Source: Rhizophagus irregularis (lineage: Eukaryota). Taken from it: DNA of 64,000 bases. The notes under the pieces are model-generated. The model was not told the origin of the DNA. It did no database searches and worked only from the letters and a program-made list of their open reading frames with translations. This document shows positions 1-42,829 of this stretch, piece after piece; the stretch's first letter is position 1; every line of letters starts with the position of its first letter. The stretch is from NCBI RefSeq assembly GCF_026210795.1, contig NC_089433.1, forward strand, positions 3,162,001-3,226,000, given 5' to 3'. The translations under genes and the position numbers were made by a program.

Positions 1-2420
1 TTTTTAACTAAGAGGATCATTTAGAGCATTTTTGATAGAGAATTTTCTAAAGATTTGTTTGGAGAGATTATTTTTGAGAATTTTTTAACTAAAGGGACCG
101 TTTGGAACATTTTTTGATAGAGAATTTTCTAAGAATTCGTTTGGGAAATGGTTTTTTGAGAATTTTTTAACTAAAAGGATCATTTAGGCATTTTTTGATT
201 GAGAATTTTCTAAGAGTTCGTTTAGGGAAATTATTTTTTGTATTTTTTAATTAAGGGAATCGCTTAGGGCATTTTTGATAGAGAATTTTCTAATGATTCG
301 TTTGGAGAGATTGTTTTTGAGAATTTTTTAACTAAAGGGAACGTTTGGAACATTTTTGATAGAGAATTTTCTAAGAATTCGTTTAGAAAATGGTTTTTCG
401 AGAATTTTTTAACTAAAAGGATTATTTAGGGCATTTTTTGATTGAGAATTTTCTAAGAGTTCATTTAGGGAAATTATTTTTTGAATTTTTTAATTAAGGA
501 GATGGTTTAGGGCATTTTTTGATTGAGAATTTTCTAAGAGTTCGTTTAGGGAAATTATTTTTTGTATTTTTTAATTAAGGGGATTGTTTAGGGCATTTTT
601 TGATAGAGAATTTTCTAAGGATTCATTTGGAGAGATTATTTTTGAGAATTTTTTAACCAAGAGATCGTTTGGAACATTTTTTGATAGAGAATTTTCTAAG
701 AGTTTGTTTGGGAAATGGTTTTTTGAGAATTTTTTAACTTAAAGGATCATTTAGAGCATTTTTGATTGAGAATTTTCTAAGAGTTCGTTTGGGGAAATTA
801 TTTTTTGTATTTTTTAATTAAGGGGATCGCTTAAGGCATTTTTGATAGAGAATTTTCTAATGATTCGTTTGGAGAGATTGTTTTTGAGAATTTTTTAACT
901 AAAGGGAACACTTGGAACATTTTTGATAGAGAATTTTCTAAGAATTTGTTTGGGAAATGGTTTTTTGAGAATTTTTTAACTAAAAGGATCATTTAGGGCA
1001 TTTTTGATAGAGAATTTTCTAAGAGTTTGTTTGGGGAAATTATTTTTTGTATTTTTTAATTAAGGGGATCACTTAGAGCATTTTTGATAGAAAATTTTCT
1101 AATGATTCGTTTGAAGAGATTGTTTTTGAGATTTTTTAACTAAAGGGAACGTTTGGAACATTTTTGATAGAGAATTTTCTAAGAGTTCGTTTGGGAAATG
1201 GTTTTTCGAGAATTTTTTAATTAAAAGAATCATTTAGGGCATTTTTTGATAGAGAATTTTCTAAGAGTGTTTAGGGAAATTATTTTTTGAATTTTTTAAT
1301 TAAGGGGATCGTTTAGGGCATTTTTTGATAGAGAATTTTCTAATGATTCGTTTGGAGATATTATTTTTGAGAATTTTTTAACCAAAGGGACTGTTGGAAC
1401 ATTTTTTGATAGAGAATTTTTTTGATAGAGAATTTTCTAAAAGTTTGTTTGGAAAAATTATTTTTTGAGAATTTTTTAACTGAAGGTATCATTTGATAGA
1501 GAAATTTCTAAGAGTTCGTTTAGGAAAATTATTTTTTGTATTTTTTAATTAAGGGAATCGCTTAGGGCATTTTTGATAGAGAATTTTCTAATGATTCGTT
1601 TGGAGAGATTGTTTTTGAGAATTTTTTAATTAAAGGGAACGTTTGGAACATTTTTGATAGAGAATTTTCTAAGAATTTGTTTGGGAAATGGTTTTTCGAG
1701 AATTTTTTAACTAAAAGGATCATTTAGGGCATTTTTTGATTGAGAATTTTCTAAGAGTTCGTTTAGGGAAATTATTTTTTGAATTTTTTAATTAAGGAGA
1801 TCGTTTAGGGCATTTGATAGAGAATTTTCTAAGGATTCGTTTGGAGAGATTATTTTTGAGAATTTTTTAACTAAAGGGAATGTTTGGAACATTTTTGATA
1901 GAGAATTTTCTAAGAGTTCGTTTGGGAAATAGTTTTTCAAGAATTTTTTAATTAAAAGGATCATTTAGGGCATTTTTTGATAGAGAATTTTCTAAGGATT
2001 CATTTGGGGAGATTATTTTGAGAATTTTTTAACCAAGGGATCATTTGAAACATTTTTGATAGAGAATTTTCTAAGAGTTCGTTTGGGGAGATTATTTTTA
2101 AGAATTTTTTAACCAAAGGGATCGTTTGGGGCATTTTTTGACAGAAAATTTCCAGGAGTTCATTTGGGGAAATTATTTTTTGGGATTTTTTAAACTAAAG
2201 GGATCATTTAGGACATTTTATTTTTAATAAAGAAATTCTAAGAATTCATTTGGAAGATTTTTTGAGATTTTTTTAATAAATCTTCTAAGGGTTCATTTGA
2301 AGAAATTTTTTAAAAAAAGTTTTTTAACTAGAGGGGTCATTTCAAATATTTTTTTGATGAGAAATTTTCTAAGGGTTCATTTGGAAAGATTTTTTTTTGA
2401 TAATTTTTTAATCGAAGGGG
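1..2420. repeat. Tandem satellite, ~81-bp monomer, with a mostly three-monomer (~240 bp) higher-order pattern; runs off the left edge
   Basis: About 30 copies of TTTTTTAA(C/T)TAA-GGGATC-TTTAGGGCATTTTTGATAGAGAATTTTCTAAG-TTCGTTTGG-GA-ATT-TTTTTGAG; diagnostic variants recur about every 240 bp; copies degenerate after ~2100. Confidence 0.95.
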
Positions 2421-4268: not shown

Positions 4269-4479
4269 AATAGTAATAAATACTGCAAGTGTTGGTAAAA
4301 TGAGTATGAGTGTCGGTAAAATGAGTGTTGATAAAATGTATCTGTCAGTAAAATGTGTGTCGGTAATGTTAACTAGATCCCCTGCGCATGTGCGCACTCC
4401 ACGTGACTTATTAAAATTAATTAAATTCGATTGGCTATGTGTCGATTTTTTTAATTTTATTTTTTTATTTTTTTTTCTT

Positions 4480-5100
4480 TAGAAACGTTTTAACGAAATG
4501 GACGAAAGTAAGTGTTTCTTCGTTATTTTTCATTTGCTTTGTTTAAAAACATTTCTTATTAATTTTTTTTTTTGTAAAAAAACCTTTTAGAAGCGAAATA
4601 GGTGAAAGGCAACTAGGTAAGTCAATTTTTGTTTGCTTTGTTTAAGAACATTTTCTAACGTCTATTAAATTTTTTTTGTAGGAACATCTCCTGGAGGCGG
4701 AATGGACCTCTGGAAATGAAAGGTAAGGGAGGAAGTCTTTTTTTTCCTTTTTTTTGCTTGTTTTGGTTTAAGAACGTTTTTAACATTCTTTTGTTAATTT
4801 TTTTCTTAGAAAAACTCTTGAAGGTGTCCCCTGAAGGTGAAATGGATTCCTGAACATGAAAGGTAAGGGAAGAGGGTCTTGTTTTTCACTCTTTTCATTA
4901 GTTTCATTTTAGAAACGTTTTTTAACATTCTTCTAATAATTTGTTTTTGTAGGAACACTTCTGGGACTAAATAGAAGAAGGGTGAGTGCTTTTTCCGTTT
5001 TTTTCATTTTTTTTTGTTTAGAAACGTTCTTCCATTAATTTTTTTTTAGGGGTACTTCTTTGAGACGAAACAGACTCCTAGAGAAATGCAATGTAACAAA
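4480..5100 (+). ncRNA. Putative non-coding micro-exon/intron array (about 5-6 short exons)
   Basis: Repeated pyrimidine-tract TAG | 25-45 nt exon | GTAAG/GTGAG units with similar introns (AGAAACGTT...TAAC...TTCT); no long ORF seen; transcription not shown. Confidence 0.5.
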
Positions 5101-10804: not shown

Positions 10805-11823
10805 TTAATTACATTTACTTTTTTTTGCACTATGTGATGTAAAGACTTGCTCAGTTTTATCTTCATCATCGTCCTCATCTGAGCTTTTGAGATGTTCATA
10901 GCTATCATCTGTAATATATCATAAATAAGATAATAGTCAAAATTGTAAACAAAAAAAAAACAAAGGAAAAAGTCTACAATTACATTTTTCCTCTTCACTT
11001 TCTGATAGTTGAAGTAAATTAGTGATACTGTCTTGACATTTTTGATGTTTACTTTCAGGTAAATTGGTGGATATGATCCGTCTTTTATTATTTGTAACTC
11101 TATTCGACTGACTTTTAGATGCAGATTCTATTTTGTTATTTCCTCTGTGTATTTTGTTAGACTTGACAATAGTCGCACTACAATCCAATTTGAAAGGTAG
11201 GAATTGCGACCTTTCTGGGAGTACTGAAGTGTTAAAGCCATCAGGAGTATCTTCTGAAGCATTAAAGTCATCAGGAGCATCGTTATCCCTATAAAAAATA
11301 TATATACAGTTAGTATACTGTATTTTCGTATTTTGCGAACAGTATATTTATAGTATTATTACAGTATAATTACAGTATTTTCACATACTGTATATATTCG
11401 GTATTCTGCACACCGTATCATATATACGGTTTGCATACAGTATATTTTTCCAGTTTCATCCATATGTTTTATACTTGTAAACAGTAGAAAAACCGTATGT
11501 TTTATACTAATAAACAGTATATTGTTTTATATTTTATATTGCGAACAGTATACTTTTCCAGGATAAACCGTATATTTTATACTGATAAACAGTACTTTTT
11601 TCCAGTTTAAACTGCATATTTTGTACTGATAAATAGTATATATTATTCAATTAAATCGTATATTTTATATTTGCAAACAGAATTTAAAATGCATTTATAA
11701 TCAATAAAATTTTTATTAAATAATATTAAATATACAAATATTTTTTTACAGAATTTTTTACTGAAAAAAAAAACTCTTTCTGCCGATCATCCGGTCAAAA
11801 TTTTGAATAAAAAAAATTGAAAA

Positions 11824-13750
11824 ATGGGAGTGACTGTTTCAACTGAAGACGTTAGTTTATTGCAAGACTTCGGGTCTAAGTCTAAAGAGGAACAAGAAAA
11901 AGTTATAGAAAAAGCAGGTTTTGTTGTTGAAGAGACAGATAAAAGAATAGCAGAGTATATGGCACTAGCGGACTCACAAGCAGTAGTGGTACAGAGACTA
12001 TGTGAACTAGTATATAATAAAACAAAAGACAGTATGATAGAAGAAGCTCAACAACAAATGGTTCTAGCTCGACAAGAATGGGAACAACATACAGAAATTA
12101 AAGAACGAAGTATGAAGCAAGAACTACAAAAATTATTGGATGTAGTGAATAAAAAAGACTATTTAATTAGTCACGAAACTTCAGTGGTAGAGGAAATCAC
12201 ATCTACAAATGAATCAGAACGCTCAGGAGCTTCTAATGGTAACGGTCTTTTTGAAGGACAGAATTTTTATAATTCAGATTCTCAATCTTCAGGATTCAAC
12301 GAACGACTACACAAAGAGCTGAATATTGGTTCTTGTGTAATAAAGTCAGACACCAATGAAAATGAGATGAAAGGTATTAGAACTACTAAAGGAAAAAATA
12401 TGTCAATACACAGAGCGGCTGACGTGGAAAATCAGGAGCATTACCATATTGGGATAAGATCATATACTATAAGTGGTAAATTGTCGGATCAGCAGAAAAT
12501 AGATTACGTCAAGAATTTAATTCAGAAATATAATATTTCTTACCAGAGTATAGACGCACATATATTGTAGTTGCTGTTTCTAGTAATGATGAGGTAGAAA
12601 AAATTCTTGATACTTCAGGAAAGGATAGAGAGTTTCCTTACAAGTTCATACCCATTATTAGTTTAAATGCAACATTGAATGAACAAGTTATCTGGCTTAC
12701 CAAAGTAGATAAATCTTTTTCACAACAGGAAGTATGCGAGGCGGTAATTAATACATTAGGTGAAGTTCAACATATTAAAAAGATAGAGTACAGATATAAT
12801 AATTCTTTTAGAGTAACGATAAAAGTAACGTGTTCCGATGTCACTTTCAATAACACATGGTCGATTGAAATTGGCAAAGGAAGAGCTGAAGTTTGGCCGG
12901 AGAGGTTGAGTACAGAAGAAAAAAAGAAACGCAAAACTTTTAAAGCATGGATAAATAATGTAGATAAAGATACTACAGAAAGTAGTTTTACGAGACAATT
13001 ATATAATTTTAACGCAAAGAGTTGGCTTTTAGTGGATAGTGGTAATACACTAAGATTAGAAGTCACATTTGACAACAATCAAGACATGTTAAGATGTGTG
13101 AAAAAAGAATTCGTATTTGAAGGAAGAGGTTATAGATGGGAAATGGAGAACAATGACAATAAACAAATTAGGAATTTTAACAAATCGATTAAAAAAGAAA
13201 GAGAAATCATGTGTTATAATTGCGGTAGTATGGGACATATGGCCAAATTTTGTCAGAATAATAATTTTCAACAGCAAGGTTATAGAAATCAGGAAAGAGT
13301 TAAAAGTGAAGAAATAGGACTGAGATGCTACAGTTGTGGTAATGTAGGACATTTGGCGAGATTTTGTCAAAATCATCATTTTTTTTATCAAAAAGAAAAT
13401 AGAATTCAAAGAAGCAGCGGGGTCAAGGATCAGGAATAAGATGTTTTAATTGTAAAAAAATTGGACATTTAGCAAGGGATTGCAGAAACGAATACAGTAA
13501 TAGTTTCAATGGAACTGGTAAACAAGGATATAAAAATCAAGAAAAGTTTCAATCACAAAATCATCAAAGACAAGATTATAATATAGAGTATCAGAGAGGT
13601 AATAGGTTTTTTCATGCCCAAGGTAATCCACAATTACAACATCAATACAGACAACAATTTCGTGAACAAAGGTATGGAAATAGATTTAATCAACAACGAT
13701 ATGCAGGGAATGGTTCTCAGAATGGAGGTAACAACTTCAGGAAATACTGA
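11824..13750 (+). pseudogene. LINE ORF1 (gag-like) with three CCHC zinc knuckles and two frameshifts
   Basis: CYNCGSMGHMAKFC, CYSCGNVGHLARFC and, after a frameshift near 13430, CFNCKKIGHLARDC; another frameshift near 12560; Q/N/R-rich tail ending in TGA at 13750. Confidence 0.85.
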
Positions 13751-16700
13751 AGTTGCAAATAATTTTAAATCAATAAAGACAAAAGAAAGGAGCGGGAAAG
13801 GCATAGAGGAGTTGAAGGTGGAGGAAATAGACCATTATAATTCGAATAAGAGAGGAAGAGAACAAAATATAGAAATTTTAGATAATATCAATATAAGAAC
13901 AAAGAAAAACAAAAAAATAGATAAAAATAGATATAAAAATATACAAAAACAAATTAAAACAGACAAAAATATAAAAAAACTGGCAGTTTATAACGTACAA
14001 GGGTTAGGGAAAGAGGACAAATATGGTTTATTAGTGGATGCTTTAAAGGAAAACAAATGGGATATTTTGGGTTTATGTGAAACAAAGCTTAAATCAGAGG
14101 CGGCAAAATTCAGATTTATAGGTTTAGATAATTATATCAGTTACAGTGCATGTAACGAAAACTCGAGCAAAGAAGGAGTGACTTTGTTAATTAAAAAGTT
14201 GCTGGCATATCATGTAACAAATATAGAAAGAATAGAAGGAGTAGCAATTAAAGTGGATCTAGTTTTTAAAAATAAGGTTAAAAATTTTAGGTGTATTTTA
14301 ATATATAGACCGATTGAAAAATTAGAAAATGTAGTAAAAGTTCAAGAAATTCAAGATAAGTTAACAAAGTGGAATGATTGTGACTATGATAAATGGGATT
14401 TAGTAGTAATGGGAGATCTTAATGAACATTATAAGGTAGAAGAGTTCTTAGATAAGGGTCTTAATAGCGTTAAAGGAAAAAAATGCAAAATAATTAATTG
14501 GTTATTAAAAAATAATTTTATTGATTCTGAATATATCATCAATAGTTTTAATGTAGACAGTAATTTTACGTGGAAGTCAGGTAATAATTGTAGTAGAATT
14601 GATTATATTTGGATTAGAGATTCTATGGATTTTTTATTAGAAGATTTTAAGGCATTTGAATTTGAAGATTTTGTTGAGAGCGACCATAGACTAATAGAAA
14701 TAAAATTAAAGGATATTAATGAAGAAATAAAGGAGAGAGAAGAAGTTACATTAGATGTAAGTGAAGTTAGTACTATATTGGACAGAAATAAAGTACAAGA
14801 GAAATGGAAAGAATTTGCAGAAATCATAGAAAATAAGTTGAAGGTTAGTATAGCTAATGAATATGATATGGGTATTGAAGGCACGTGGAAAATGATTAAA
14901 GATTGTTTTATGGAAGGGGAAAAAATATTACCAAAAAAAGAAATTAAGAAAATGAGAGTTTCGGGAAATGATCTACTATTACGTGATAAAGAATTTAAAA
15001 AGATTTTGCAAATTTATCAACGAAGTAAAAAGATCAGGACAAGATTTAAAAAATTAAAAAAGGTTATAGCAATGCAGTTGGATGAAATATCACAAATTGA
15101 CAAAGTCTTATATGATAATAATAGAAAAATTATTAACCACAATAATTTGACGATGCAAGAGGAATACAAGTTTAATACATATAAACTGGAAGAAATTAAT
15201 CAAGAGAATTGGGAAAGTCTTAACAATAAGGTTAAGAATATTAAAAAAGATTTGGAAAATATTGGAGAAAGGATAAAACATAAACAGATTAGAGAAAAAA
15301 TTATTAAAAGACAACAATTAGCGATATCGAATCCAGGTAGTTTTATTAGGAAAATATTTGAAAACAAAAAACGACATGTTATTGATTTTTCTAGGTTGGT
15401 ATGTAAACATGAAGAGGAAATTGATATTATAGTGGATAAAGAAGAAATCAAAAATAAAGTGTATGTGCATTATAAAGAATGGACAAAAAAAAGAAGCATT
15501 GATACACAGGTCGAAGGGGCGCCATTGTCCAAAATTCAAAAAATGCAAATTCCCCATTTTCCTGGAAAATGGTGGAAAATTGTGGAAAATGCTGCATTAC
15601 GCTGAGCAATTTTTTGGAATAGCATTGTTACAACATTGTCCGATTTAGCAAATCTTATGAAATTTTGGGAAAATGCTACATTATATCTCAAATGTAACAT
15701 TTTTGTAACATTTCGTAACATTGTTATAACATTGTCATTAAAATCAAATTTTGCTTTTTTTTTGTTAAATGTTCCAATTTTCTTGCAAATGGTGCATTTT
15801 TATGAAAATTTCACATTTTACCTCAAATGTAATAACATTTAATAAAATTGTTATAACATTGTCAATTAAAATCAAATTTTGCTTTTTTTTTGTCAAATGT
15901 TCCAATTTTCTTGCAAATGGTGCATTTTTATGAAAATGCCACATTTTATCTTCAATGTGATATCATTGTAACAACATTTCATAAAATTGTTATAACATTG
16001 TCAATTAAATTCAAATTTTGTCAAATATTCTGATTTTCTTGCAAATGGTGTATTTTTTTATGAAAATTCTATATTTTCTGTCAAATGTTGCATATTTTCA
16101 GCAAATTTTACGTTTTTTTGGTCAAAATGTTTCATTTTCGTCAGAATGTTAAGATTTTACATTTTTTTTTGAAAATGCTCAGTAATATAGCATTACACTG
16201 GAAAATGTAGCATTTCACCAAATTACACTAAAAAGCATCACAATTATCTCATTTTTTGGAAAATTCCACATTACATTAAATTATACTAAAAAATGTAGCA
16301 CTATACTAGATTATGCGGCATTGCACTAAAAAATACCACAATTACACTAGACAATGTAGCATTACACTAAAAAGTACCACAATTATCATATTTTTTAGAA
16401 AATTTCGTGTTATGCTGGAAAATGTAACATTATGCTAGAAAATTCAGAATTGCACTAAAAAATACCACAATTGCACTAGACAATGTAGCATTACACTAAA
16501 AAGTACCACAATTATCATTTTTTTTTAAAAAAATTTCGCGTTATACTGGAAAATGTAACATTATGCTAGAAAATGCGGAATTGCACTAAAAAACGCGGAA
16601 TTGCACTAAAAAACACAAAAAAAAATACTACAATTACATTGGATAACATAGCATTACACTTAATTACATTAAAATTGATGATAATTTTTATTTATTTAAT

Positions 16701-17008
16701 TACGTACATTATTAAATTTATAATATTTATATTTTAAACGCATTATTTAACATTAAACACATTGTTAATATAACACGATGTGTTGTGATGTAATTTAATA
16801 CTAAACCTTACTACTGAAGACTCCCTCTTTTTGTCACTATAAACAGGCGGAGGGAGCAGCAATGGCTCTCCCCCTATAGGTACTTTATGACCTCTACCTG
16901 TTTACAGAGGAGGGGCTTTTCGTAAAGTATTAGTTAATAGATATATATATATGTATATATAAGCATATATATACATCTATTTAAAATTATTAAAATAAAA
17001 AAAAAAAT

Positions 17009-17155
17009 TCCGGGGCGGGGGGAAAGCCCCTATTTATATAAAATTATATATCACGTGCGTCACGTGATATTACTTAATAATTACCGCAGCTTCAGCTGCG
17101 GTATAACGAAAAAAAAAATTAAGCTTTTTTTAGCAAAAGCTTAATTTTTTTTTCT
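17009..17155. promoter_or_regulatory. Cluster of palindromes and GC/TATA-like motifs just upstream of the micro-exon array
   Basis: GGGGCGGGGGG, TATATAAAA, ATATCACGTG-CGT-CACGTGATAT, TACCGCAGC-TTCA-GCTGCGGTA, AAAAAAATTAAGCTTTT..AAAAGCTTAATTTTTTT; promoter role is inferred. Confidence 0.4.
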
Positions 17156-17299
17156 CACGTCCTCTTTCTTTCTTCCCTTTCCCCTTTCCCTTTCGTTCCC
17201 TTTCCCTTTCCCTTTCGTTCTCTTCCTCCCTTTTCGTTTTATTTCCCTTCCCTTCGCCCTTTTCCCCTCTCTTTCTCTCCCCTTCCCCTTTCCCTTCCC

Positions 17300-18471
17300 G
17301 GAAAATTCCAACGAAATGGTAAGTTTCGAAGCGTTCGCTTCGAAACTTTTAATATATTTTTTTAATTTCTTTTAGAAAATGTTTCTAACGCTTCCTATAC
17401 TCTCTTTTTTTTTAGATCTCGATATTCGATTTCAGAAATTTAGGAAATTAAGGGTAAGTTTCGAAGCGAGTTCGCTTCGAAACAGTGTTTTTTTTTAATT
17501 TCTTTAGGAAACGTATCTAACATTTCTTATTTTTTTTTTTTGTGTAGGTCTTTCGGCATGCTTCTTTGGGATTTGAAATGGTAAGTTTCGAAGCATATGC
17601 TTCGAAACTTTTTGAAAATTTTTAATTTCTTTAGGAAACTTTTCTAACGTTTCCTTTCTTTCTTTTTTTATGTAGGTCTTTCGGTATTCGACTTCGGGAA
17701 GCAAGGAACCGAAAGGGTAAGTTTCAAGCGTTTCGCTTCAAAACTTTTTTAAAAAAAATTATTTTTTTTTAATTTTTTGTAAGGAAACGTTTCTAACGTT
17801 TCCTATTTTTTTTTTTGTAGAGATTTTTCGATATTCGACTTTGGAAGGCGAATCGGTAAGTTTCGAAGCGTGTTGTTGTACGCTTCAAAACTTTTAAGAA
17901 AAAAATTTTTTTCTTTTTTTTGTAAGGAAACGTTTCTAAGTTTCCTTTTTCTTTTTGTAGGAACGCCGGACGTTTGGATGATGAGTTCGAAATGAACCGG
18001 TGAGTTTCGCAACATTGTGTTGCGAAACTTTATTTTTATTTATTTCTTTTTAAGAAACGTTAACTAACGTTTCTTTATTTTACTTTTTGTAGGTTCCGGA
18101 CATTAGGATGATGGTAAAGTTTCGCAATGTTACATTGCGAAACTTAATTTTTATTTTTTTTATTATAAGAAACGTTTATATTAACGTTTCTTTTTTACTT
18201 TTTGTAGGTTCTGGATGTTAGAATGATGGAAACGAACCGGTAAGTTTCGCAATGTTACATTGCGATACTTAATTTTTTATTTTTTTTTTATTAAAAGAAA
18301 CGTTAACTAACGTTTCTTTCCTTCTTTTTGTAGATTCTGGACGTTTGGATGAAACGACCCGGTGAGTTTCGCAACGAATCGTTGCGAAACTTAATTTATT
18401 GTTTTTTTTTAAAGAAACGATATTAAACGTTTCTTTCCTTTACTTTTTGTAGGACAAAGGAAACTCTGGGC
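17300..18471 (+). ncRNA. Array of 9 double-hairpin introns separating 21-41 nt micro-exons
   Basis: Introns at 17319-17415, 17454-17547, 17581-17675, 17717-17820, 17856-17960, 18000-18092, 18114-18207, 18240-18333 and 18362-18452, each with GT(A/G)A, a TAAC-type branch motif, a pyrimidine tract and TAG. Confidence 0.7.
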
Positions 18472-18736
18472 CAGGGACGATGATTTTTTGTGATCACAGA
18501 ATTTCACAGAAAATCACAAAATTTGGTTATAAAAATGTTGATAATTTTCAAGTTTTTGGCCTGATTTAGGATTTGAAATCATTATAATTCTGGCAGACAC
18601 TAAATTTGACCAGAATTTACGAATAGTAATGTTGGCCAACCTTGCATAATTCTGGCCAAATCACAAAATTTCACAAAATTTATTTTTATCACACACAAAA
18701 TTTACTTTATACCGCCGCAAAAAATCATCGTCCCTG
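18472..18736. mobile_element. hAT-type MITE (265 bp)
   Basis: TIR CAGGGACGATGATTTTTT...AAAAAATCATCGTCCCTG; 8-bp TSD CTCTGGGC/CTCCGGGC (1 mismatch). Confidence 0.9.
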
Positions 18737-19009
18737 CTCCGGGCATTTGGTGGGGTGTTCTTTTATTATATAACGAAACATTATTTAAGTTTCGTTTATT
18801 TTTTGTTTTTTTATAGGTTAAAGGAATGAAAGGGAAAGGTGAGAACGAAAGAAAAGAGAAAGATGAGAACGAAAGGGAAAGGTGAAAAATGAAAGGGGAA
18901 TGTGAAAAATGAAAGGGGAAGGTGAAAAATGTAAAGGAAAAGAGAAAACGAAAGAGAAGACGAAAGGGAAGGGTGAGAACGAAAGGGAAAGGGAAAATGA
19001 AAGGGAATA

Positions 19010-19600
19010 TTTCGAAGGTATACTTCGAAATATTTTTTATTTTTATTTTTTTCAACGAAACGGTTATTAATGTTTCGTTTTTTTTTCTTTTTTAGGTTCA
19101 GCAGCTCATTGGACATATGGAATTCAACATTTCGAAGGTATGTAACTTCGAAATGTTTCTTTAATTTAATTTTTTCACGAAACATAAATTAATGTTTCGT
19201 TTTTTTTTCTTTTTAGGTTCAGCGGCTTATTGGACGTATGGAATTCAACATTTCGAAGGTATATAACTTCGAAATGTTTCTTTAATTTAATTTTTTTCAT
19301 GAAACATAAATTAATGTTTCGTTTTTTTTCTTTTTTAGGTTCAGCGGCTTATTGGACGTATGGAATTCAACATTTCGAAGGTATATAACTTCGAAATGTT
19401 TCTTTAATTTAATTTTTTCATGAAACATAAATTAATGTTTCGTTTTTTTTCTTTTTTAGGTTCAGCGGCTTATTGGACGTATGGAATTCAACATTTCGAA
19501 GGTATATAACTTCGAAATGTTTCTTTAATTTATTTTTTTTTACGAAACGTATATTAATGTTTCGTTTTTTTTCTTTTTTAGGTTTTCTATTTTGGCACTG
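19010..19600 (+). repeat. ~121-bp tandem exon-intron unit (42-nt exon plus ~79-nt double-hairpin intron), 4-5 copies
   Basis: TAG|GTTCAGCGGCTTATTGGACGTATGGAATTCAACATTTCGAAG|GTATATAACTTCGAAATG...GAAACATAAATTAATGTTTCG repeated almost identically. Confidence 0.85.
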
Positions 19601-22600
19601 GTGCGGATTATCCATAGATTATCGGATATCTGATAAATATAGATTATCGTTAAATAATAATAATTGTGCATTTATTAATAAATAAAATTATAATAGATTA
19701 TAAATCAGTGTTTTAAATTGTCATGGCGTTTACACTAAATTGTTTAAAATTATTACTAAATTTCGCTCAATTGTCTGAAAATTTCACTCAATTATCTGAA
19801 ATTATTGCAAAATTTCACTAAATTATCTTCGAAAATGTTGCATTTATATCGTTTACACTCAATTGTCCAAAATCGGTAAGACATTTTCACTCAATTGTCC
19901 GAAATTATCCTAAATTTCACTAAATTATTCAAAAATCTAGCTAACATTTACCAAAAAAATGCAAAATTCACCACAATTTTCCACAATTTGTATTACGTTT
20001 GCACAACATTGCTGAAAAATTCACCTAAATTTTCAACAATTTACATAATATTACTAAAAATACACTACAATTTACCATTATTTGCATTACGTTTGCATAA
20101 CATTACTAAAAATTTAACTAAATTTACCACAATTTGCACTTCGTTTGCATAGCATTACTAAAAATTTAACTAAATTCACCACAATTTACATTACGTTTAC
20201 ATATAATTACTAAAAATTTAACTAAATTCACCACAATTTGCACTTCGTTTGCATAAAATTACTAAAAATTTGCCTAAAATTCACCACAATTTACATTACG
20301 TTTGCATAAAATTACTAAAAATTTAACTAAATTCACCACAATTTACACTTCGTTTGCATAACATTACTAAAAATTTGCCTAAAATTTCCCACAATTTAAT
20401 GATAATTTACTGAAAAATTTCTCAACATTTGAATTAGGAATTCTGTAGGAATTCCGCCATTTTGACAAAATTTGCCAAATTGTAAGTCCTCCATTATCCC
20501 AAAATTGTAACACAATTTACCTCAATTTACCGGGATAATTCTCAATTTGCCAGAAAAATTCCAGGCAAATTTTGCGATAATGACATCTGTTCGACCTGTG
20601 ATATGAACGAATGGGATTATTGGAAACATGAATATGAACCAAGGACAGATATAGATGAATGTATTTATGAGTCGTTAATGGAACAAATCGAATTAAGTGA
20701 ATTCGAAGAAATATTAGCATCAACTAACAATTGGAGGGCACCAGGAATTTCAGGAATCACATACGATTTCATGAAGCATAACAGGAATGTAATGAAAGGA
20801 AAACTAGTTGATCTAATGAATTCATGTTTAAAGACAAGGAAATTTCCTAAAGATTGGTTGAAAGGCCAAATTTTTCCGATTCCAAAAAAAGAAGATTGGG
20901 GAGGTGATATTTCGATCACACGTCCAATTACGTTATTAGAGTGTGTAAGAAAATGTATGTTAAAAATTTTAACAAAACGATTGACAAAAATTCTGAAAGA
21001 ATACAAAGTTTTGAAGGGTTATAATTTTGCGGCATTAGAGGGAGAGAGTTGTTTTGAACCGATAAAAATTTTACAATCAATTATAGAAGACGCTAGACTT
21101 CGTAAGAAAGAATGCTGGGTATTAATGATGGACATCTCCAAAGCCTATGATTCAGTTTTAGGCTTTTTGTTAATAAAGGCTTTGGAAAGATTAAAGATTC
21201 CAGAAGGATTTGTTGATATTGTGGAAGAAATTTTTTATAATAGAGAGAATAGAGTGATGGTACAGAATGATTATACAAATTTTTATGAGGTTGAGGACGG
21301 CATAGACCAGGGTGAAGTATGGTCCCCGATCCTGTGGAGGATTTTTTTTGAGCCATTACTAGATCGTTTAAAAAAAGAAGACAGTTGGGGTTATGAAATA
21401 AAAGCACAAGAAATTATTAATATTAATACAGGATGGACGAATATTATTAATGAGAAAATTAATCATTTAGCCTTCATGGATAACGCTAATCTAATTAGTA
21501 GTAGTAAAGAGAATCTAGTAAAACTATACAATATTTGTAATAGCTTCTTTAGATTAAGTGATATCAAAGCAAACCCAAAAAAATATGAACTGTTAGTAAT
21601 AGGAAACAAGATTGAGGATAAGGAAGAAGAGAATCAAGTTTTATTAGATGGATGTAGTGTTAAAATAAATAACTCAGAAGAAGGTGCTCGGTTTTTAGGT
21701 GTTTGGTTTAGTGCTCAAGCAAATTTTAAATCGCATAACAGGATAATTGAAGATTGTGTGAAAAGATTAACGAATGTGATGCGTTGGAAAAAATTAACTG
21801 CAAAAGAATGTATTTATTTATGGAACACTGTGATAATTCCTGTAGTAGAATATCAATTGCAATGTACAGTGTTAAATAAAGTACTTATAGAGAAATTGGA
21901 TAGTAAGATCCGAAGTGTAATTAAACAAAAATGTGGTTTAGCAGCTCATACAAGTAATAGTGTAATTCATGATAAAGATTTTTTGGGTTGTAAGAGCGTT
22001 GAAGCACTACAAAAAGAATCGTTAGTTAAAAGTATTTTATATTGTATAAATCATGAAGGATTACTAGGAAAGATTATGAAAATTAAAATAGCGTCTATTA
22101 AAGAGATTATTTGGTTTAATGGATGCATTTTTAACGATATAAAACATATTTTTAATAATAGAAAGCAAATTTGGTTGTTAGAAAGGTTAAAGGTTTTGGC
22201 AGAAGATAATTTCAAGTTGTGCAATCATAATAGATTGCATGGACATGTAGTTAGTGGTGGACATATGTCAATTGATGAGATGATTGACAAAAATATTTTG
22301 AGTTGTAGTGTTAAAAGTTTGAGTTTGGTCAATATAATGTATATTACGCAATTGATTGATGAAAATAACAGATTAAAAACATGGAGACAAGTAACAGCAG
22401 AAGCAGGACGAAGTAGTAAAGGCAAAATACCAAATTGGTTCAAAGAATTAGAAAATAAACTAATGAAAAATGATCAAAGAGAAGTTTTTGCGTGTTATGA
22501 GTTAATTAGTGAAGTTTATGATTTGTATAATAATAATGTGATATTAAGGGACTCTTGGGAAAAATTTAATGAAATTTATATTGGTAGAGAGTATGATGAT

Positions 22601-24989
22601 TTAATTGAGTTTGATAATAGATTTAAGCTTATAGAAAAGTGTTTTGTTGGAGGACAAGGTTTTAGGTTATTAGAAAAGGAATATTTAGATTTAGTTGACG
22701 TAAATCAAAGTGATTTAAAAATTTATACTGATGGTAGTAAAAAAGAGTATGTTAATGGTATAGGTTGGGTGATTTTTAATGGGGATAAGATTTTAAGTAA
22801 AGGTCGTTTAAAAATAAAAGGAAATTATGAGGTTTGGGAATTAGAATTGGTTGCAATAGTAGCAGCGTTAATGATTGTAAATAAGGGTAATAGTGTTAAA
22901 ATTATTACAGATAGTAAAATAGTAAAAGATTTATGGGATAAGCTAGTGGAGGTTAAAAATGGTATATGGTCAACGAGAAGAATTTGGAATGTTAAATTTA
23001 GTGGTATTTGGAAGTGGGTAAGATATATGGTTAAATATCTAGATTTAAATATAAGTGTATATAAGATTAAAGGACATTCTGGTGATTTAGGCAATGAAAT
23101 GGCTGATAGTTTGAGTAAATTAGCATTAAGAGAGACGGAGGGTAGTTTAATAACATATTTGAATATTCCAGAAGACATGTCATAGGAATATAATTTATAT
23201 TGGAAAAGAGAGTTAATCAAAGAAGCACCAAGAGATTTTATGAAAGAATTTAATCAAAGATATTATAAAGCGGCTTGGCTGTCATTAGATATTAGTAGGA
23301 CTTTAAGAGTTAATATTTTGGATGCGCAGATTGATTGGAAAAATTCTTATATGATAATAATGGAAGAATATAAAGGTGACATCACGGATTCTAATAACAA
23401 GACGGTGGTATACAAATTAAAAAATTTTCTTGAAATTTTACCTACAATGACTCTGTTAAATAAAAGAAATCTTGAAGTTTACAGAAGTGGCAAATGTGTA
23501 AGATGTCAATTCATGATGGAGTCATGGACGCATTTATGGATTTGTAAAGAAAATGAAACATCGATTATACAAATTATTAATCAAGCTTTTGAAATTCTTA
23601 AAGAAAATTGGATAATCAGAATTTTAGATTGGATTTCAATTATTATGCAAGACTTTTACAAATTTTAAATGATCGGTCATATTCAATATTTAATGGTAGA
23701 ATTTTTCATGAAGCAATTAAAGGTATGATTAATTCACGTCTATATTTAAATATTAGTGATCCAATTTTTACAACAGCAATTAAAGGGTTTGTTCGAGACA
23801 TACATATATTAGCGAGAGATGTTATTTGGGTAGAAAGGTGTAAGGAGGTTAATAAATGGGAACGAAGTGTCGGTATCTCTAGGATAGTGAAAAAGAATTG
23901 TAAATTAGAGACATCTTCTTTACCATCTATAGGGTCAAATAGTAAACATAGAAATCAATTTATATATGATGTGTCACAAAGATGGCTGGGTAGTTACCTG
24001 GCAAATATGGAGCATAGGAAAAATTTATGGTTTAGTTTAGATATTTCTGATTTATGGTCGTATCATAATTTAGTTAAATTTAGAAGTTCTAAGTATGCAT
24101 TAAATTATAGTATTTTAGACTAGTTTGTAGATAGATACTTTATTATGAGATATATTATGTCTAAATTATAACAAATTGTGTTTCAATAATTGTTATAATA
24201 TTAATAAAGTTTGGTTAAAAAATAAAAAAAAAAAAAATATTTTTTATAAATAATATAAATAAAAAACTAGTATAAAATAATATACTATTTGTAAAAAAAA
24301 TAATATTAGCAAAATATAAACAAAAAAAAAGAAATTTAATTAGTAATATTATCATTATTTTAAATATAAAAAAGAAATAATAAAAAGTTAGTAATATTAT
24401 TAATATATTAGTTAGATATAAAAAAGTAATAAAACGATAGTAGTAATAATGTTAGTAATATATTAAAAAAATTAAATAAAATACATAAAAGTAAAAAAAA
24501 ATATAATTAATATATGTTAACATATAATATTAATATAAAAATAAAAACATAAAACGGTGTACATATAGTTGTTTAATTAATATTGTTAAAATTCACCATT
24601 ACAATTCCTGAGAGATATTAGTGAAAGTAATTGTTAATTGATATACGTGCATATCACTTTTTGTATAATTAGTAGTTTGGTACAAATATATATTATATAT
24701 TATCAAAATAAGTTTTTTATTTAATTTTTATTATTATATGTTAAAATAATTTTGGTATTCATTTTTATTGTTTTTTTTTTCTAAAAAAAAAGAAAAGAAA
24801 AGAATATTTTTGAAAAAATAAACAAAAAATAAACAATAACGTGTTATTAATGCATGTGATCAGTGATCAGCTGAATTTTAATTGGTTAAATATAGAAATG
24901 CGAAAATTAAAAAGCAGAAGTATTTTTTTTAAAATTTAAATCATACAGATTGTTTTTAAAGTTTAATTAGTAATTTAAAAGTTCTTTTT

Positions 24990-33953: not shown

Positions 33954-36934
33954 ATGAGTTTCAAATGCCCCCTTTGTATGCGAATATTCAGTCAACGCTT
34001 TGCATATACTCAACACGCCCAAAAATGCTTAAAAAATGTAGAAGTAGAAGTAGAAGATGATGATGATAATAATGATAGTGAAAAATATAGCAGTGAAATG
34101 GATACAAGAAGTAATCTAAGTAGTGAATATGAAAATGATAAAGTTGAGGTAATTATGTTATTCCAGATTATTCTTTTTAAAGAAAAAGCTCAAATTATAC
34201 TAACTCATTTTGGTTTATAATTTTAGGTGGATGATGATAATAATGTACAAAATATGTCATTTGACAGTATTGGAAGTGCAATATCAGAGATGAGCCTTGA
34301 AGATAGTAACTTTGAAAATATATTAGATTCATCTGAAGAGCCTGAAATTTTTGAAGAACCCAAAAATCTCAATACCAAAACTTGCACAGAATTTCCTAAT
34401 GATGCTTATAAAGATCTAATGTTATTAGTAACAAAATATAAAATAAACAATAAAGGTGGTAATGAAATAATACGTTTTTTTAATAAACATTCAAATCTTA
34501 CAGAATCACCATTACCAAAAAATATTGAACAGGGACGAGCATTTATGAATAATATGAAGTTTTCTAATTTAGAATTTAGTAAAGTTCTTATAACAAAACA
34601 TAAGGATAAAGATTATTTTCTTTATTATCAAAACTTAATACAGTGCATCAAAAATATCTTAACTGTTCCTGACATAACACAAAATTTTGCGCTATCTTAC
34701 GAAAACTATGAGGTAAATAGTAAATATTAGTTAATTCAATAATTTAAATAATATTTATTTTAATTTATTTATATTATTTTATAGTATAATAGAGAAAGTA
34801 TTTACAGTGAACAAAACACTGGAAAATGGTGGAAAACTACGCAAGAATCCTTACCTACTGGTTCCAAATTATTATCAATTATTTTATATTCAGATGCAAC
34901 AACTACAGATACATTAGGAAAAAGTCAATTGCATCCAATATATATTTCATTAGGCAATATTCCAATATGGCGTCGTAATAAACAGGATGCAAAGCAACTT
35001 TTGGGATATTTACCAATTTTAGAAGCTGCAAATAAAGATCTGGTTCGTGATACCTTTCATAAATCTTTACGTCATTTACTAGAACCAATTATTTTATTAA
35101 AAGATGGTATAGACCTTTTTATAAATAATGAAAATACCTGGTTTTATCCTAGAGTTTCAACTATTATTGCAGATTGGCCAGAAGCCGCAAGTTTTTGTTT
35201 AGTTTATAAATCCTCCAATTCAAGCCTTCCATGTCACTCCTGTTTAATTAAAAGGGACAATCTTGCAAATATAAACTTATCGGTTAACGATGTAATACTA
35301 AGAACTCATGATGAAATGCGTAAATATTTTGAAAATGATACACAAAAATCTGTTTGCATAGAATCTGTACCTAATTTTTTTTGGGATTTGCCGTAAGTAT
35401 GCAAAAGTAGAAATAATTATAATAACATATATATATATTAATTATAAATATTTATATTATCAAGGAATATAAATATCTACTTGGCTACTGTTCCTGACAG
35501 AATGCATCATTTAGATTTGGGTTTATTTCGTTATCAAATTATCTTCACGTGCGATATCTTAAAATTGCAACATGTTAATGGTAATAAATTAGTTGAAGAA
35601 GTAGATCGCCGTCTAGCAGCAATTCCACGTTTTCCCGCCATTAAAATTTTTTCCAATGGACTGCAGTCAATTGCAAGATTAACTGCTAATGAATATCGAA
35701 GTTTGATGAAAGTCATGATATTTGTTATTGATAATTTATATGATGAAAATAATAACGAAGTAGATAATTTTGTAAATAATGATGATCTTGTGAAATTGTA
35801 CGAATATTGGAATGAAATGTATATTTTAAGTAGATATGAAGAATTTAGTGAAAGTGACTTGGAGAAATTTAATGTATGTATTAAAATTTTAGTAAAATCG
35901 AAAATTTAAATTAAATAAATTAAATTAACATTTAAATTTTAGGATGCAATACATAGATGGGCGCGGATGTTTGTCAAGGCTTTTAAATTTGTTTCTCCTT
36001 CCAATTTGAAGTTGCCTAAATTGCATTCATGGGTTTATCACATTATTGACTCAATACGATCTTATGGCGCAATAAATGGCTATACCACAGAAACTTACGA
36101 AAGTCTCCACAAATATTTCGTTAAAATACCCTACCGAATTAGCAATAAAAAAGATGTCGAACCTCAGCTTTTACGAACTGTAAGTATTTGGAAATTTATT
36201 TATTGTATATATTTATTATATAACTTAAGATGGAAATTAAATTAATAGATAAAACGTCAAGCAATATCTATTAGAATGTCTCAACATTCAGTGAATCCGG
36301 CAAAAACACCTCGCACTTGTAAATTTTCTGCAAGACTCTTTGATTTCTCTTTACAAGATGCAAATACATTTTTTAATGAAAAAAAAGATTCCGTAGACAA
36401 TAAAATGCAGACCGGTTTTGCTAGATTTATAAGTTGTACGGATTCATATCTAGATTTACTTGATGGGTTCGCAATTATTGGTGAAACCCGAATAAACATA
36501 TACGGATCGGTAACACTGGAAAATGGTGCCATAATGCGTGCCACAAACAGGTATCATAATAAAGTATGGTTTAGCGACATAGCTATTTCAATGGATTCTG
36601 AAGAATCAAATGATTATATATCAGACAAAGGACTTTGTTATGGACAGGTATTTTTCCAATTTATGTAATAATTTATTATAAAGTATTAATAAATATTTAT
36701 TATTTATAGGCCTTATTGTTAGCAGAAGTATTAACAGACCCACCGCTAAATCTCGCATTAATTCAATGGTACGATTTTAAATCTAAAAGGAACCCATATT
36801 TATATGGATGTCCTCACTTAAAATTGATAGAATTATATAACTTTGTAGCTATAGAGTCTATACATGGTGTCGTTCACATAGTACCCCGATTTGATAAACA
36901 AAATGAATATTTCGTAAATAAATATATTTTTTAG
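33954..36934 (+). CDS. Plavaka transposase, 7 exons, apparently intact (852 aa)
   Basis: Exons 33954-34148, 34227-34712, 34785-35392, 35465-35873, 35943-36179, 36249-36647 and 36710-36934 join in frame (2559 nt). N-terminal zinc finger; motifs LYSDAT, HPIYISLGNIP, IADWPEA, PDRMHHLDLG, PKLHSW, TETYESLHK. Confidence 0.9.
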
Positions 36935-40690: not shown

Positions 40691-42829
40691 AATATATGTA
40701 AAAAAAATATAATATTTTGTTTATATTTTAAATTATGAATTACTTAATTTAAATGTATTTATATTTAAGAAAAAAAATATTTTAATTCTATTTTATAAAG
40801 TATTTAAAAAGTATTTTAGTAAAGTTTTTGAGGCAAAAAAATAATTATAACTGAAATAAAAAAAAAAATCTAAGTTAATAAATAAATATTAAACCATAAT
40901 ACATAATCACATGTTATATATTAAAATCAGAAATTTTATATTAAAATCGAAAAATCCTATTACAAATAACAAAAATCGGCAATTTCATGTTAAAAATCAG
41001 AAATATTATATTAAAATTAGAAATATTTATTAAAATTGGAAATATTATATTAAAATTGCCAAAAAATCAGACAGCCATATTAAAAAGGGCAAAAATCTGA
41101 TTTTTATTTATTTGACCTGTGTATATCTGTAGAAAATACGTTATAAACGTATGAATTTTAATATACTGTAGAATAATACATATACCGTATCCTTTATTTA
41201 CAATATTTTTGTGAACCGTATACAAAATACTGATATACAGTAGAAATGATATATGTTATAGACGTATGAATTTAATATAACCGTATCACACAGTATGTTT
41301 ACCATATACTTTATTGTATTTTTTACTAAACACATTTTGCGAACAGTATACATTATACTGATATGCCGTATGTAAAAATGCGAACTGTATCAAAAATACG
41401 TATATACAGTATAAAAACCGTATACATATTTTTTATAGGGCATGTATTGTTGTTACTTCATCGTCAAGAATAGTAATGACATTAGGAGTTGATTCAAAAG
41501 ATTTTGTTTCGGTATAATCAGCTTCAACTTCATCTTCTTGACTCGGAGTGCATGTTTCAATTGGCTCCTTTTCCTTACCCTGACCACGGTCGTCTAGTTA
41601 TTAAAATAAATCATAGTACAAAGGAAAATTAGGAAAATATAATGAATTTTAAAAACCAGTAATTAATAAAAATATTTAAAATTATACCTGTTTTAGCTTT
41701 TTTCTTTTTGATAGTATTTACAGAAGGTTTGACTGAGCCAACTGGCTGATTCGTTCTACCACGACCATGACCACGATCACGACCACGGCTATTACCACGA
41801 CCTCGCCTACCACTATTTTTTTCACGATCTTACAATTAAAATAAAAAAATTAAAAAGTAAATAAAAATTTTGCGACAACATTGTAATTGTATATTAAAAA
41901 AAAATAAAATTTGCATTAATATTGCAATTTTATATAAAATAATTACTTGCGGTTTCTGTTATTTCATTTGATGCTGTAACTTTTCGCACTTTTTGTACTC
42001 TTGTCATTATAAATAACTATTACTGTAGACACGAAATTTGAAATAAATTATTTTTTGTTACTAATTTTATTATTGTGTATGGTAGGTATGGTAGGTAAGA
42101 AACAAAGTTTATCGTTATATAAGGGAAAGTTTAAAAGACTATTTAATATTTATTTAAGCTTAATATAAGAAAAGTCTATATCTATTTAGGAAATAATTTA
42201 AACTTTAAACTATATGTCAATAAATAAGCTTCTATATATATTTCAATAAATAAACTTTATACATCAATGTCGATAAATAAAATTTTATATTGAAAATAAA
42301 AATAAATTTTATGTTAAAAATAAAAATATTGTCTAAGAAAAAGAGTTTTTTACAATTTTTATTTTTGAATTTTTTTTTTTGAATTTTTCACTAGTAATAA
42401 CAATATCAACTCATTGATTAAAAAGCCTTCGCCCTTAAGCAATTATTCATACTGTTGTCCTTAAACAATTGTAATAATCATACTATTTCATTGTTTCACT
42501 GATTGATTAAATAACGCCTTCGCCCTTAAACTACTGTTTCACTGATAACGCCTTAATTATAATAAGTCCTTCTCTTACTGTAATACTGATTTAAAACAAA
42601 GTCTTGCTCCTATTGTAACACTGATTAAAATAAATCCTTTGTTCTTACATTCCTACCTTAACACTGATCGATTAAAAATAAAACCTTCGTCCTTACACAA
42701 TTTTGAATTTAAAATATCATCAAAAATAACAGAAGTTTTTTTACAACATATATATTATAAAAATAGTTTAAAACTATAAAGTTGTATATACTAGTGAAAC
42801 TTTATAAAATAAACTTTGTAAACTTGAAA

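What the first reader, a model, noticed from the sequence alone, without database searches (positions are those of the whole stretch)
17300..18471. Nine tandem introns, each with two covarying hairpins over the 5' splice site and branch point, between non-coding micro-exons
Seen: each 91-105 nt intron opens with GT(A/G)A(A)GTTTC-x-x'-GAAAC. The inner stem changes but stays paired: AAGCG/CGCTT, AAGCAT/ATGCTT, CAACA/TGTTG, CAATGT/ACATTG, CAACGA/TCGTTG. A second stem, (G)AAACGTT..AACGTTTC, overlaps the CTAAC branch motif. Exons are 38, 33, 41, 35, 39, 21, 32 and 28 nt, of mixed phase and variable sequence. Inference: compensatory changes mean structure is being maintained, either as RNA stems or as DNA palindromes. 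This is the main cargo of a non-coding transposon. It could be an intron-RNA or small-RNA source, a spliceosome-stalling or recruiting device, or a way to make a TE transcript look like a host gene.
Basis: partly seen in the sequence, partly recalled or inferred. Interest (0 to 1): 0.88.

Follow-up and report, generated by a model that had tools for sequence, protein, structure and literature searches.

The report
Transposon-borne arrays of self-masking introns
In the mycorrhizal fungus Rhizophagus irregularis, a transposon with no gene of its own carries tandem copies of tiny exons and introns whose intact splice signals are predicted to fold away into hairpins, a design that recurs in other soil-fungal DNA and likely helps the element stay transcribed and escape silencing, although splicing itself is untested.

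Summary
Nine GT–AG units (91–105 nt) and the eight listed micro-exons lie at 17319–18452. They sit inside a 5.1-kb non-autonomous EnSpm/CACTA-type transposon (15505–20600, ATA target duplication) that splits a LINE in Rhizophagus irregularis. Exons and introns duplicated together.

The design is widespread: 32 of 35 metagenome loci found with one intron pattern carry such arrays (19 clusters, at most about 75% identical to this copy). Three more micro-exon arrays lie in this window.

Anchoring only on the symmetric second hairpin, 102 of 104 units have an AG 10–35 nt downstream, and the branch motif is strand-biased 67 to 3. Selection for splice signals is therefore likely. Spliced arrays are no more open-framed than shuffles (9 of 17 against 10.2 expected), so they are likely non-coding.

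Only the inner part of hairpin 1 covaries; hairpin 2 is fixed in sequence. G·U pairs are not favoured, so a DNA-level origin of the palindromes remains open.

No RNA reads could be examined. Best reading: a spliced non-coding cargo that keeps the transposon active. I found no description of it in print.

The parts
15502..15504 (.). Left target-site duplication ATA
   Evidence: R. irregularis LINE proteins P0025, P0026 and P0042 read through the empty site uninterrupted.
15505..20600 (.). Non-autonomous EnSpm/CACTA-type DNA transposon, 5096 bp, inserted in LINE ORF2
   Evidence: 11-bp terminal inverted repeat CACAGGTCGAA at both ends. It separates the endonuclease part (left) from RT/RNase H (right). 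No real ORF inside.
15669..16614 (.). Left subterminal tandem repeats
   Evidence: periods 128-129, 41, 20; partly inverted against the right arm.
17035..17153 (+). Putative Pol II promoter: TATA-like 17035, twin CACGTG palindrome 17048-17070, CCGC..GCGG palindrome 17082-17103, A/T palindrome 17110-17153
   Evidence: The same modules in the same order precede the array in relative L035. Promoter function is inferred.
17156..17318 (+). CT-rich leader or first exon; loosely complementary to the GA-rich exon 18817-19017
   Evidence: local score 77 against shuffled mean 43, maximum 63 of 200.
17319..18452 (+). Array 1: nine double-hairpin introns and eight micro-exons (the finding)
18453..18753 (+). 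Exon after intron 9, interrupted by a MITE
18472..18736 (.). hAT-type MITE with 8-bp target duplication (one mismatch)
   Evidence: Terminal repeats; duplication. The hAT label from an 8-bp duplication is recalled, and consistent with PMC12730594 passages.
18754..18816 (+). Intron 10 (weak donor, 63 nt)
   Evidence: boundary inferred.
18817..19017 (+). GA-rich exon (201 nt)
19018..19581 (+). Array 2: five introns with four 42-nt exons; hairpin 1 is built from the exon end and intron start, leaving the donor in the loop
   Evidence: period 121, 93% matches; donor +1 to +5 unpaired.
19582..19690 (+). Putative last exon with AATAAA at 19677
   Evidence: 3' end inferred.
19748..20561 (.). Right subterminal tandem repeats
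   Evidence: periods 21, 52, 104-105.
20601..20603 (.). Right target-site duplication ATA

Best explanation
The nine units are tandemly duplicated exon-intron modules with canonical U2 splice signals, carried as cargo by a non-autonomous EnSpm/CACTA-type transposon of Rhizophagus irregularis; they likely form a spliced, non-coding Pol II transcript whose predicted hairpins cover donor positions +3 to +10 and the branch adenosine, and whose likely role is to keep the element transcribed and unmethylated like a host gene so that it stays mobile. Shown: anatomy, insertion, co-duplication of exons with introns, family-wide retention of GT, branch motif and AG, absence of coding signal, covariation of inner hairpin 1. 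Inferred: transcription from the CACGTG/CT-rich promoter and real splicing (about 0.85). Predicted: hairpins form on the nascent RNA and slow U1 and U2 binding, so that splicing factors dwell on the element (about 0.55). Least certain: that the benefit is escape from methylation or RNAi.
For: (1) Splice signals outlast exon sequence. With the symmetric hairpin 2 as the only anchor, the first AG lies 10-35 nt downstream in 102 of 104 distinct units, it is YAG in 100, and CTAA(C/T) is on the T-rich strand in 67 against 3. In a looser set, AG is in place in 156 of 160 and GT precedes the RAGTTT anchor in 98 of 109, while exon positions -3 to -10 never exceed 50% for any base. GT is the rarest dinucleotide inside exons (observed/expected 0.34). 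(2) Non-coding: 9 of 17 non-redundant arrays have an open frame against 10.2 expected; exon lengths modulo 3 are 26/16/20; this copy has 4, 4 and 3 stops. (3) Co-duplication: neighbouring exons are alike (z at least 4 in 5 of 7 pairs) and introns fall into blocks 1-5 and 6-9. (4) Recurrent cargo: 32 of 35 loci, 19 clusters at 90% identity; the same class of terminal repeat lies beside arrays in L001/L010, L005/L006/L013, L007 and at window 55025. (5) Masking is specific: median pairing probability of +3..+8 is 0.95 in 86 array introns against 0.44 in 32 other intron-like stretches of the window. (6) CpG is retained: observed/expected 2.4 and 2.7 in the two arrays against 0.7-0.8 in the flanking LINE and a hAT; higher than flanks in 24 of 27 loci; 1.28 in exons. 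(7) Evolutionary logic (inference): cargo kept across many non-autonomous copies most simply benefits copying of the element. Introns are needed for expression in Cryptococcus (PMC5851062, passages).
Against: No RNA, lariat, small-RNA or methylation data were examined. No intron-less junction was found among 92 tested. The one relative found by the antisense-frame search was unspliced. No G-U preference in either stem, and antisense strands fold as well as sense. Two other arrays in this window show no CpG excess (0.74 and 0.80), and the mask was drawn around CpG-containing motifs, so that test is partly circular. Masked splice sites should stall spliceosomes, which in Cryptococcus triggers RNAi rather than avoiding it. 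Units share ancestry, so counts are not independent. Each locus was fetched by a pattern containing one GTAAG donor. The 32 control introns are uncurated calls.
Confidence: 0.4

Rival explanations
1. The introns are real, but the palindromes are DNA features: copied and perfected by template switching and tandem duplication, and/or kept as sequence motifs (GAAAC/GTTTC with a CpG) for a DNA-binding protein such as an element-encoded anti-silencing factor. RNA folding would be incidental.
For: No G-U excess (hairpin 2: 28 against 55; hairpin 1: 18 against 13). Hairpin 2 and outer hairpin 1 are fixed in sequence rather than covarying. The core motif occurs 29 times per kb in array 1 against about 1 elsewhere. 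Perfect palindromes also lie in the upstream promoter region and are kept in L035. Template switching creates and maintains stems (PMC8794818, abstract) and such mutations need high transcription in yeast (PMC3820800, abstract).
Against: The stems sit on the donor and the branch site and nowhere else in the unit (hairpin 1 3' arm found in 82 of 92 introns). Arm spacing varies widely, unlike a fixed dimer site. In array 2 the stem is rebuilt so that the donor lies in the loop.
Confidence: 0.25
2. The arrays are RNAi triggers: strong but masked splice sites stall spliceosomes, and the CT-rich and GA-rich exons or inverted array pairs give double-stranded RNA, so the transcript feeds small-RNA production (host defence, or self-limitation of the element).
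For: Donor and branch site are predicted paired while the pyrimidine tract and AG stay free. Branch-point sequestration inhibits splicing (PMC2275289, abstract). Stalled spliceosomes feed RNAi in Cryptococcus. AM fungi have expanded Argonaute and RdRP families, and 41% of small-RNA loci are unannotated (PMC8647823, passages). Inverted array pairs occur at window 48.5-49.6 kb and in L030.
Against: A self-silencing cargo is hard to keep across many transposon lineages. CpG retention suggests low methylation. The stems (12-16 bp) are short for Dicer (recalled).
Confidence: 0.2
3. The introns are the product or the mobile unit: stable intron RNAs, or introner-like elements that multiply by themselves.
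For: Many similar, structured introns; fungal introner-like elements also show stable folds and compensatory changes (PMC3609843, passages).
Against: All 32 loci hold two or more units in arrays, and none was a lone intron in a coding gene. Exons duplicated with the introns. No Rfam family at its gathering score. No C or D box; ACA in the last 45 nt of only 1 of 9 introns.
Confidence: 0.08
4. It is an orphan micro-exon protein gene carried by the transposon.
For: 13 public gene models from several R. irregularis assemblies join these exons into 114-243 aa frames. Array 2 exons are all 42 nt.
Against: No excess of open frames family-wide. Duplicated exons mostly differ by non-multiples of three. 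Four of the 13 models end in a shifted frame and two read through half an intron. No Pfam match above cut-off for the two models scanned.
Confidence: 0.07

Closest known systems
Non-autonomous EnSpm/CACTA (CMC) DNA transposons; fungal EnSpm with CAC..GTG ends and 3-bp duplication (PMC12730594, passages)
   Same: CAC..GTG termini, 3-bp target duplication, subterminal repeats, no transposase. CMC elements expanded recently in R. irregularis (PMC8647823, passages).
   Different: The interior is a 15-intron non-coding unit built from duplicated modules; none of the passages read describes such cargo.
Introner-like elements of ascomycetes (PMC3609843, passages) and Introners (PMC9860276, passages)
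   Same: Multi-copy, sequence-similar spliceosomal introns with stable folds and compensatory changes.
   Different: Here they are short (70-133 nt), tandem, duplicated together with exons, and in non-coding cargo rather than in unrelated genes. The Introner pipeline filters out similarity that extends beyond the intron, so it would discard these.
Same-gene intron duplication through exonic repeats (Cryptococcus example in PMC3609843)
   Same: Introns multiplied by tandem duplication of exon plus intron.
   Different: That case is a single gene; this recurs in 19 diverged clusters, has no coding constraint and keeps paired masks on both signals.
Stalled-spliceosome RNAi (SCANR) of Cryptococcus (review PMC5851062, passages)
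   Same: Transposon transcripts with introns predicted to splice poorly.
   Different: There the signals are suboptimal (recalled); here they are consensus and masked by structure. The link to RNAi is untested.
Transposon anti-silencing through motif arrays: VANC/VANDAL in Arabidopsis, TnpA/Spm in maize (recalled, no call)
   Same: Non-coding tandem repeats with a dense short motif inside a DNA transposon, linked to low methylation.
   Different: Those repeats carry no splice signals; no binding protein was identified here.
Non-coding snoRNA host genes and mirtrons (recalled)
   Same: Non-coding exons, with conserved information in the introns.
   Different: No snoRNA boxes or pockets and no Rfam match; the stems are short and do not span the intron.

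Membership tests
EnSpm/CACTA non-autonomous element | Terminal inverted repeats starting CAC | tested here: met
   CACAGGTCGAA at 15505 and 20600.
EnSpm/CACTA non-autonomous element | 3-bp target-site duplication with an empty site elsewhere | tested here: met
   ATA on both sides; uninterrupted LINE proteins P0025, P0026, P0042.
EnSpm/CACTA non-autonomous element | Autonomous partner with the same ends and an EnSpm transposase | tested here: inconclusive
   The same end occurs at 41121 and 55025, but no matching left end or linked transposase was established. No whole genome was held.
U2 spliceosomal introns | GT donor, branch motif, pyrimidine tract and YAG in order and conserved | tested here: met
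U2 spliceosomal introns | Removal from RNA (junction or lariat reads) | not testable with these tools
   No reads were available. Public gene models join the same boundaries but are predictions. 0 of 92 intron-less junctions in DNA.
Introner / introner-like element | Near-identical introns inserted at unrelated positions of unrelated genes | tested here: not met
   All 32 loci are arrays; neighbouring exons are homologous. The sample is limited to pattern hits.
Introner / introner-like element | Stable predicted structure with compensatory changes | tested here: met
   z -3.7 to -7.9; inner hairpin 1 covaries.
Non-coding snoRNA host gene | C/D or H/ACA boxes in the introns | tested here: not met
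   No C or D box in 9 of 9; ACA in 1 of 9; no Rfam family at gathering score.
Mirtron | One hairpin pairing the intron's two ends, long enough for Dicer | tested here: not met
   Two local stems of about 12-16 and 7-11 bp; the 3' end is unpaired.
Micro-exon protein gene (schistosome MEG type, recalled) | Symmetric exons keeping one open frame | tested here: not met
   26 of 62 exons are multiples of three; 9 of 17 arrays open against 10.2 expected. Array 2 alone has 42-nt exons.
Conserved RNA structure under selection | Covariation across the whole stem, with G-U tolerance on the transcribed strand | tested here: inconclusive
   Inner hairpin 1 yes; hairpin 2 nearly invariant; no G-U preference.
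SCANR-type RNAi substrate | Spliceosome stalling and small-RNA production | not testable with these tools
   Needs small-RNA and spliceosome-profiling data.

The most novel reading that the evidence does not exclude
AM-fungal DNA transposons have evolved a dedicated splicing device: arrays of consensus introns that hide their own donor and branch site in hairpins, used not to make a protein or an RNA product but to hold spliceosomes on the element and so set its chromatin or RNAi fate. This would be a new class of transposon cargo and, at four micro-exon arrays in one 64-kb window, possibly a major unannotated part of these genomes.
Probability: 0.35. Interest if true: 0.9.

Novelty: new variant of a known kind. 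Interest (0 to 1): 0.72.

Why it matters
It would give a natural, multi-copy test of an open question: whether splicing marks a transcript as self or as a target for silencing. The system offers dozens of natural variants in stem length, and two opposite designs in one element (donor in the stem in array 1, donor in the loop in array 2). It also bears on AM-fungal genome annotation. At least 13 'hypothetical protein' models come from this one family, so some orphan genes and part of the 24% of the genome in unclassified repeats (PMC8647823, passages) may be such arrays. Finally, it is a clean case for asking whether compensatory changes reflect RNA selection or template-switch mutation.

Tried and rejected
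No whole genome was held, so copy number in R. irregularis is unknown. RNA reads could not be examined, so splicing and expression stay open.

Rfam at E up to 1 gave 12 weak matches, all far below gathering scores.

CRISPR-like repeat-spacer reading (GTTTC...GAAAC ends, 21-41 nt 'spacers'): rejected, because the exons are homologous to one another.

U1-mimic idea (3' arm ending ACTTAC): present in only 8 of 82 introns, so not general.

Intron loss through cDNA: 0 of 92 junctions. A search for spliced antisense products among 1.84 billion representatives gave 3 hits, one an unspliced relative and two unrelated repeat proteins.

An apparent excess of open frames (19 of 28 against 13.7) vanished after removing redundant loci and using dinucleotide shuffles. 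AG depletion in exons (0.61) is no stronger than CA or CC, so only GT depletion is used as evidence.

The strict hairpin-1 caller dropped 48 of 92 introns; a looser one found the 3' arm in 82 of 92. The alignment for pair counts used the 9 window introns plus 23 of 30 listed long-hairpin introns, which favours pairing.

Earlier scan notes: nothing by sequence, by place, or by AM-fungal words.

Literature searches found no description. Supplementary repeat libraries of PMC8647823 and PMC11952901 were not read and may hold the element as an unnamed consensus.

Full report
Observation. Each intron has GT(A/G)AG, a U-rich linker, a branch-like motif 24-30 nt from the end where one was called, a pyrimidine tract and TAG. 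Each folds far better than its shuffles (z -3.7 to -7.9). Hairpin 1 pairs donor positions +3 to +10 and beyond; hairpin 2 usually pairs the AAC of the branch motif. Decay is visible: hairpin 1 is broken in intron 4, hairpin 2 is weak in introns 1 and 2, and CTAAC is exact in 6 of 9.

Setting. The reverse transcriptase to the right matches a named Rhizophagus irregularis protein at 100%. The array lies in a 5096-bp element, 15505-20600, with 11-bp terminal repeats CACAGGTCGAA and an ATA duplication. It splits a LINE ORF2 between its endonuclease and RT domains, and three R. irregularis proteins read through the empty site. CAC..GTG ends with a 3-bp duplication fit fungal EnSpm (PMC12730594, passages). 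Inside, in order, are subterminal repeats, a TATA-like box, a twin CACGTG palindrome, two more palindromes, a CT-rich leader, array 1, an exon broken by a MITE with an 8-bp duplication, a GA-rich exon loosely complementary to the leader, a second array of five introns, and a last exon with AATAAA. In array 2 the stem is formed with the exon end and leaves the donor in the loop. Relative L035 has the same promoter modules in the same order. This anatomy is that of a Pol II unit; transcription is inferred.

Distribution. One intron pattern found 35 metagenome loci (36 rows, one listed twice). A covariance model gave two or more hits in 32 of them and none in L009, L015, L031 or the single prokaryote hit L036; viral contigs gave none. 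The 32 loci form 19 clusters at 90% identity, and the closest are about 75% identical to this element. One neighbour gene, a Tet/JBP dioxygenase, has only AM-fungal relatives among its taxonomically named hits, 57% at best, so at least that locus is likely from another AM fungus; the others were not placed. Long loci hold twenty or more units. The same class of terminal repeat lies beside arrays in three locus groups and at window 55025. Three more micro-exon arrays lie in this window, at 4.4-5.1, 48.5-49.6 and 53.8-54.7 kb; they are more degenerate and were not hit by the model.

Are they introns? Anchoring only on the strand-symmetric hairpin 2 and orienting by T-richness, 102 of 104 distinct units have their first AG 10-35 nt downstream, 100 as YAG, and CTAA(C/T) falls on that strand in 67 against 3. 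In a looser set of 160 units, 156 have the AG, and GT precedes the RAGTTT anchor in 98 of the 109 that have it, while exon positions -3 to -10 vary freely. GT is the rarest dinucleotide in exons (0.34). A symmetric DNA repeat would not give this asymmetry, so selection on splice signals is likely. Caveats: shared ancestry, and one donor per locus was built into the search. Thirteen public gene models join family copies at these boundaries, but they are predictions. No intron-less copy was found (0 of 92), and no reads were examined.

Coding? This copy has 4, 4 and 3 stops in the three frames. Among 17 non-redundant arrays, 9 have an open frame against 10.2 expected, and exon lengths are spread over all phases. 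The annotated frames come from near-identical copies; four of 13 end out of frame and two run through half an intron. I read them as by-products. Neighbouring exons are homologous and the introns fall into two blocks, so the array grew by tandem duplication of exon plus intron, not by intron insertion.

Are the hairpins selected as RNA? Inner hairpin 1 changes in blocks and stays paired: 97 of 112 positions in 37 distinct variants, against a permutation mean of 61 and maximum of 76. On 32 aligned introns there are 43 two-sided cells, reached by 0 of 500 shuffles. Other intron-like stretches of the window lack the masks. But outer hairpin 1 and hairpin 2 are fixed in sequence, G-U is not preferred over A-C (28 to 55 and 18 to 13), and perfect palindromes also lie upstream of the leader. 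Template switching can create and repair stems in one step (PMC8794818, abstract), and in yeast such mutations were seen only under high transcription (PMC3820800, abstract). Structure is therefore maintained, but whether by RNA-level selection, by a sequence-specific protein or by mutation is unresolved.

Mechanism. Consensus splice signals kept under their own masks, in cargo that encodes nothing, recur in many element lineages. The simplest benefit is to the element. I favour a unit that keeps the transposon transcribed and spliced like a host gene, and so unmethylated and available to transposase, with hairpins slowing U1 and U2 binding so that the machinery dwells (0.4). CpG retention fits (2.4-2.7 against 0.7-0.8; 24 of 27 loci), but two other arrays in the window lack it and the test is partly circular. 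Rivals: DNA-level palindromes or motifs (0.25); an RNAi trigger by stalling, as in Cryptococcus (0.2; PMC5851062, passages; branch-point masking inhibits splicing, PMC2275289, abstract); intron RNA or introner (0.08); orphan protein (0.07).

Comparison and novelty. The carrier is an ordinary non-autonomous EnSpm-type element. The introns resemble introner-like elements in being structured and multi-copy (PMC3609843, passages) but fail the defining test of dispersal into unrelated genes; they also fail snoRNA-host, mirtron and micro-exon-gene tests. Six searches aimed at AM fungi and passages of PMC10234402, PMC11952901, PMC8647823, PMC13465315 and PMC9860276 show no description; their supplements were not read. 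VANC, TnpA, mirtron and schistosome micro-exon comparisons are recalled. I rate it a new variant of a known kind, with a 0.35 chance that it is a new class of functional cargo. Interest 0.72.

Noticed in passing
window 4400-5050 (+): Another micro-exon array behind a CACGTG motif: five donors, with a degenerate second hairpin only.
   Followed up: partly
window 48500-48850 (+) and 49290-49600 (-): An inverted pair of micro-exon arrays, near-identical copies facing each other, which could give double-stranded RNA.
   Followed up: partly
window 53790-54650 (+), end at 55015-55025: A further micro-exon array, with some donor-covering hairpins, ending near the same terminal repeat as the focal element; its left end was not found.
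   Followed up: partly
window 41111-41121: An element end nearly identical to the ends beside arrays in L005, L006 and L013, downstream of a Plavaka transposase gene (34227-36900) and of 50-bp and 185-bp tandem repeats; no link was shown.
   Followed up: partly
L025:711-2189 (-): A 493-aa Tet/JBP dioxygenase frame lies just downstream of two long arrays; it belongs to a large AM-fungal family (82 hits). PMC12730594 has no mention of Rhizophagus or Glomer- taxa. One case only.
   Followed up: partly
L006 (-) 720-1440; L013, L014, L033: Upstream of the double-hairpin introns run many short repeats that carry only a 3' splice site (pyrimidine tract plus TAG) and no donor (L013, L014 and L033 inferred from their antisense frames).
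   Followed up: no
window 18472-18736: hAT-type MITE in a micro-exon, with an 8-bp duplication differing at one CpG position.
   Followed up: yes
P0044 and P0048: Two gene models listed on contigs of the same length differ by exactly one 14-residue repeat (one 42-nt exon): either exon skipping or neighbouring copies.
   Followed up: no
window 11821-24100: LINE with a zinc-knuckle ORF1 and an endonuclease-RT-RNase H ORF2, polymorphic for the insertion among R. irregularis sequences.
   Followed up: yes
window 35448-35906: A below-cut-off Pfam hit (18.5 against 25 bits) to a neurotoxin receptor-binding domain on an asparagine-rich transposase exon; likely compositional.
   Followed up: no
window 1-2280: An 81-bp satellite of about 28 copies.
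   Followed up: no
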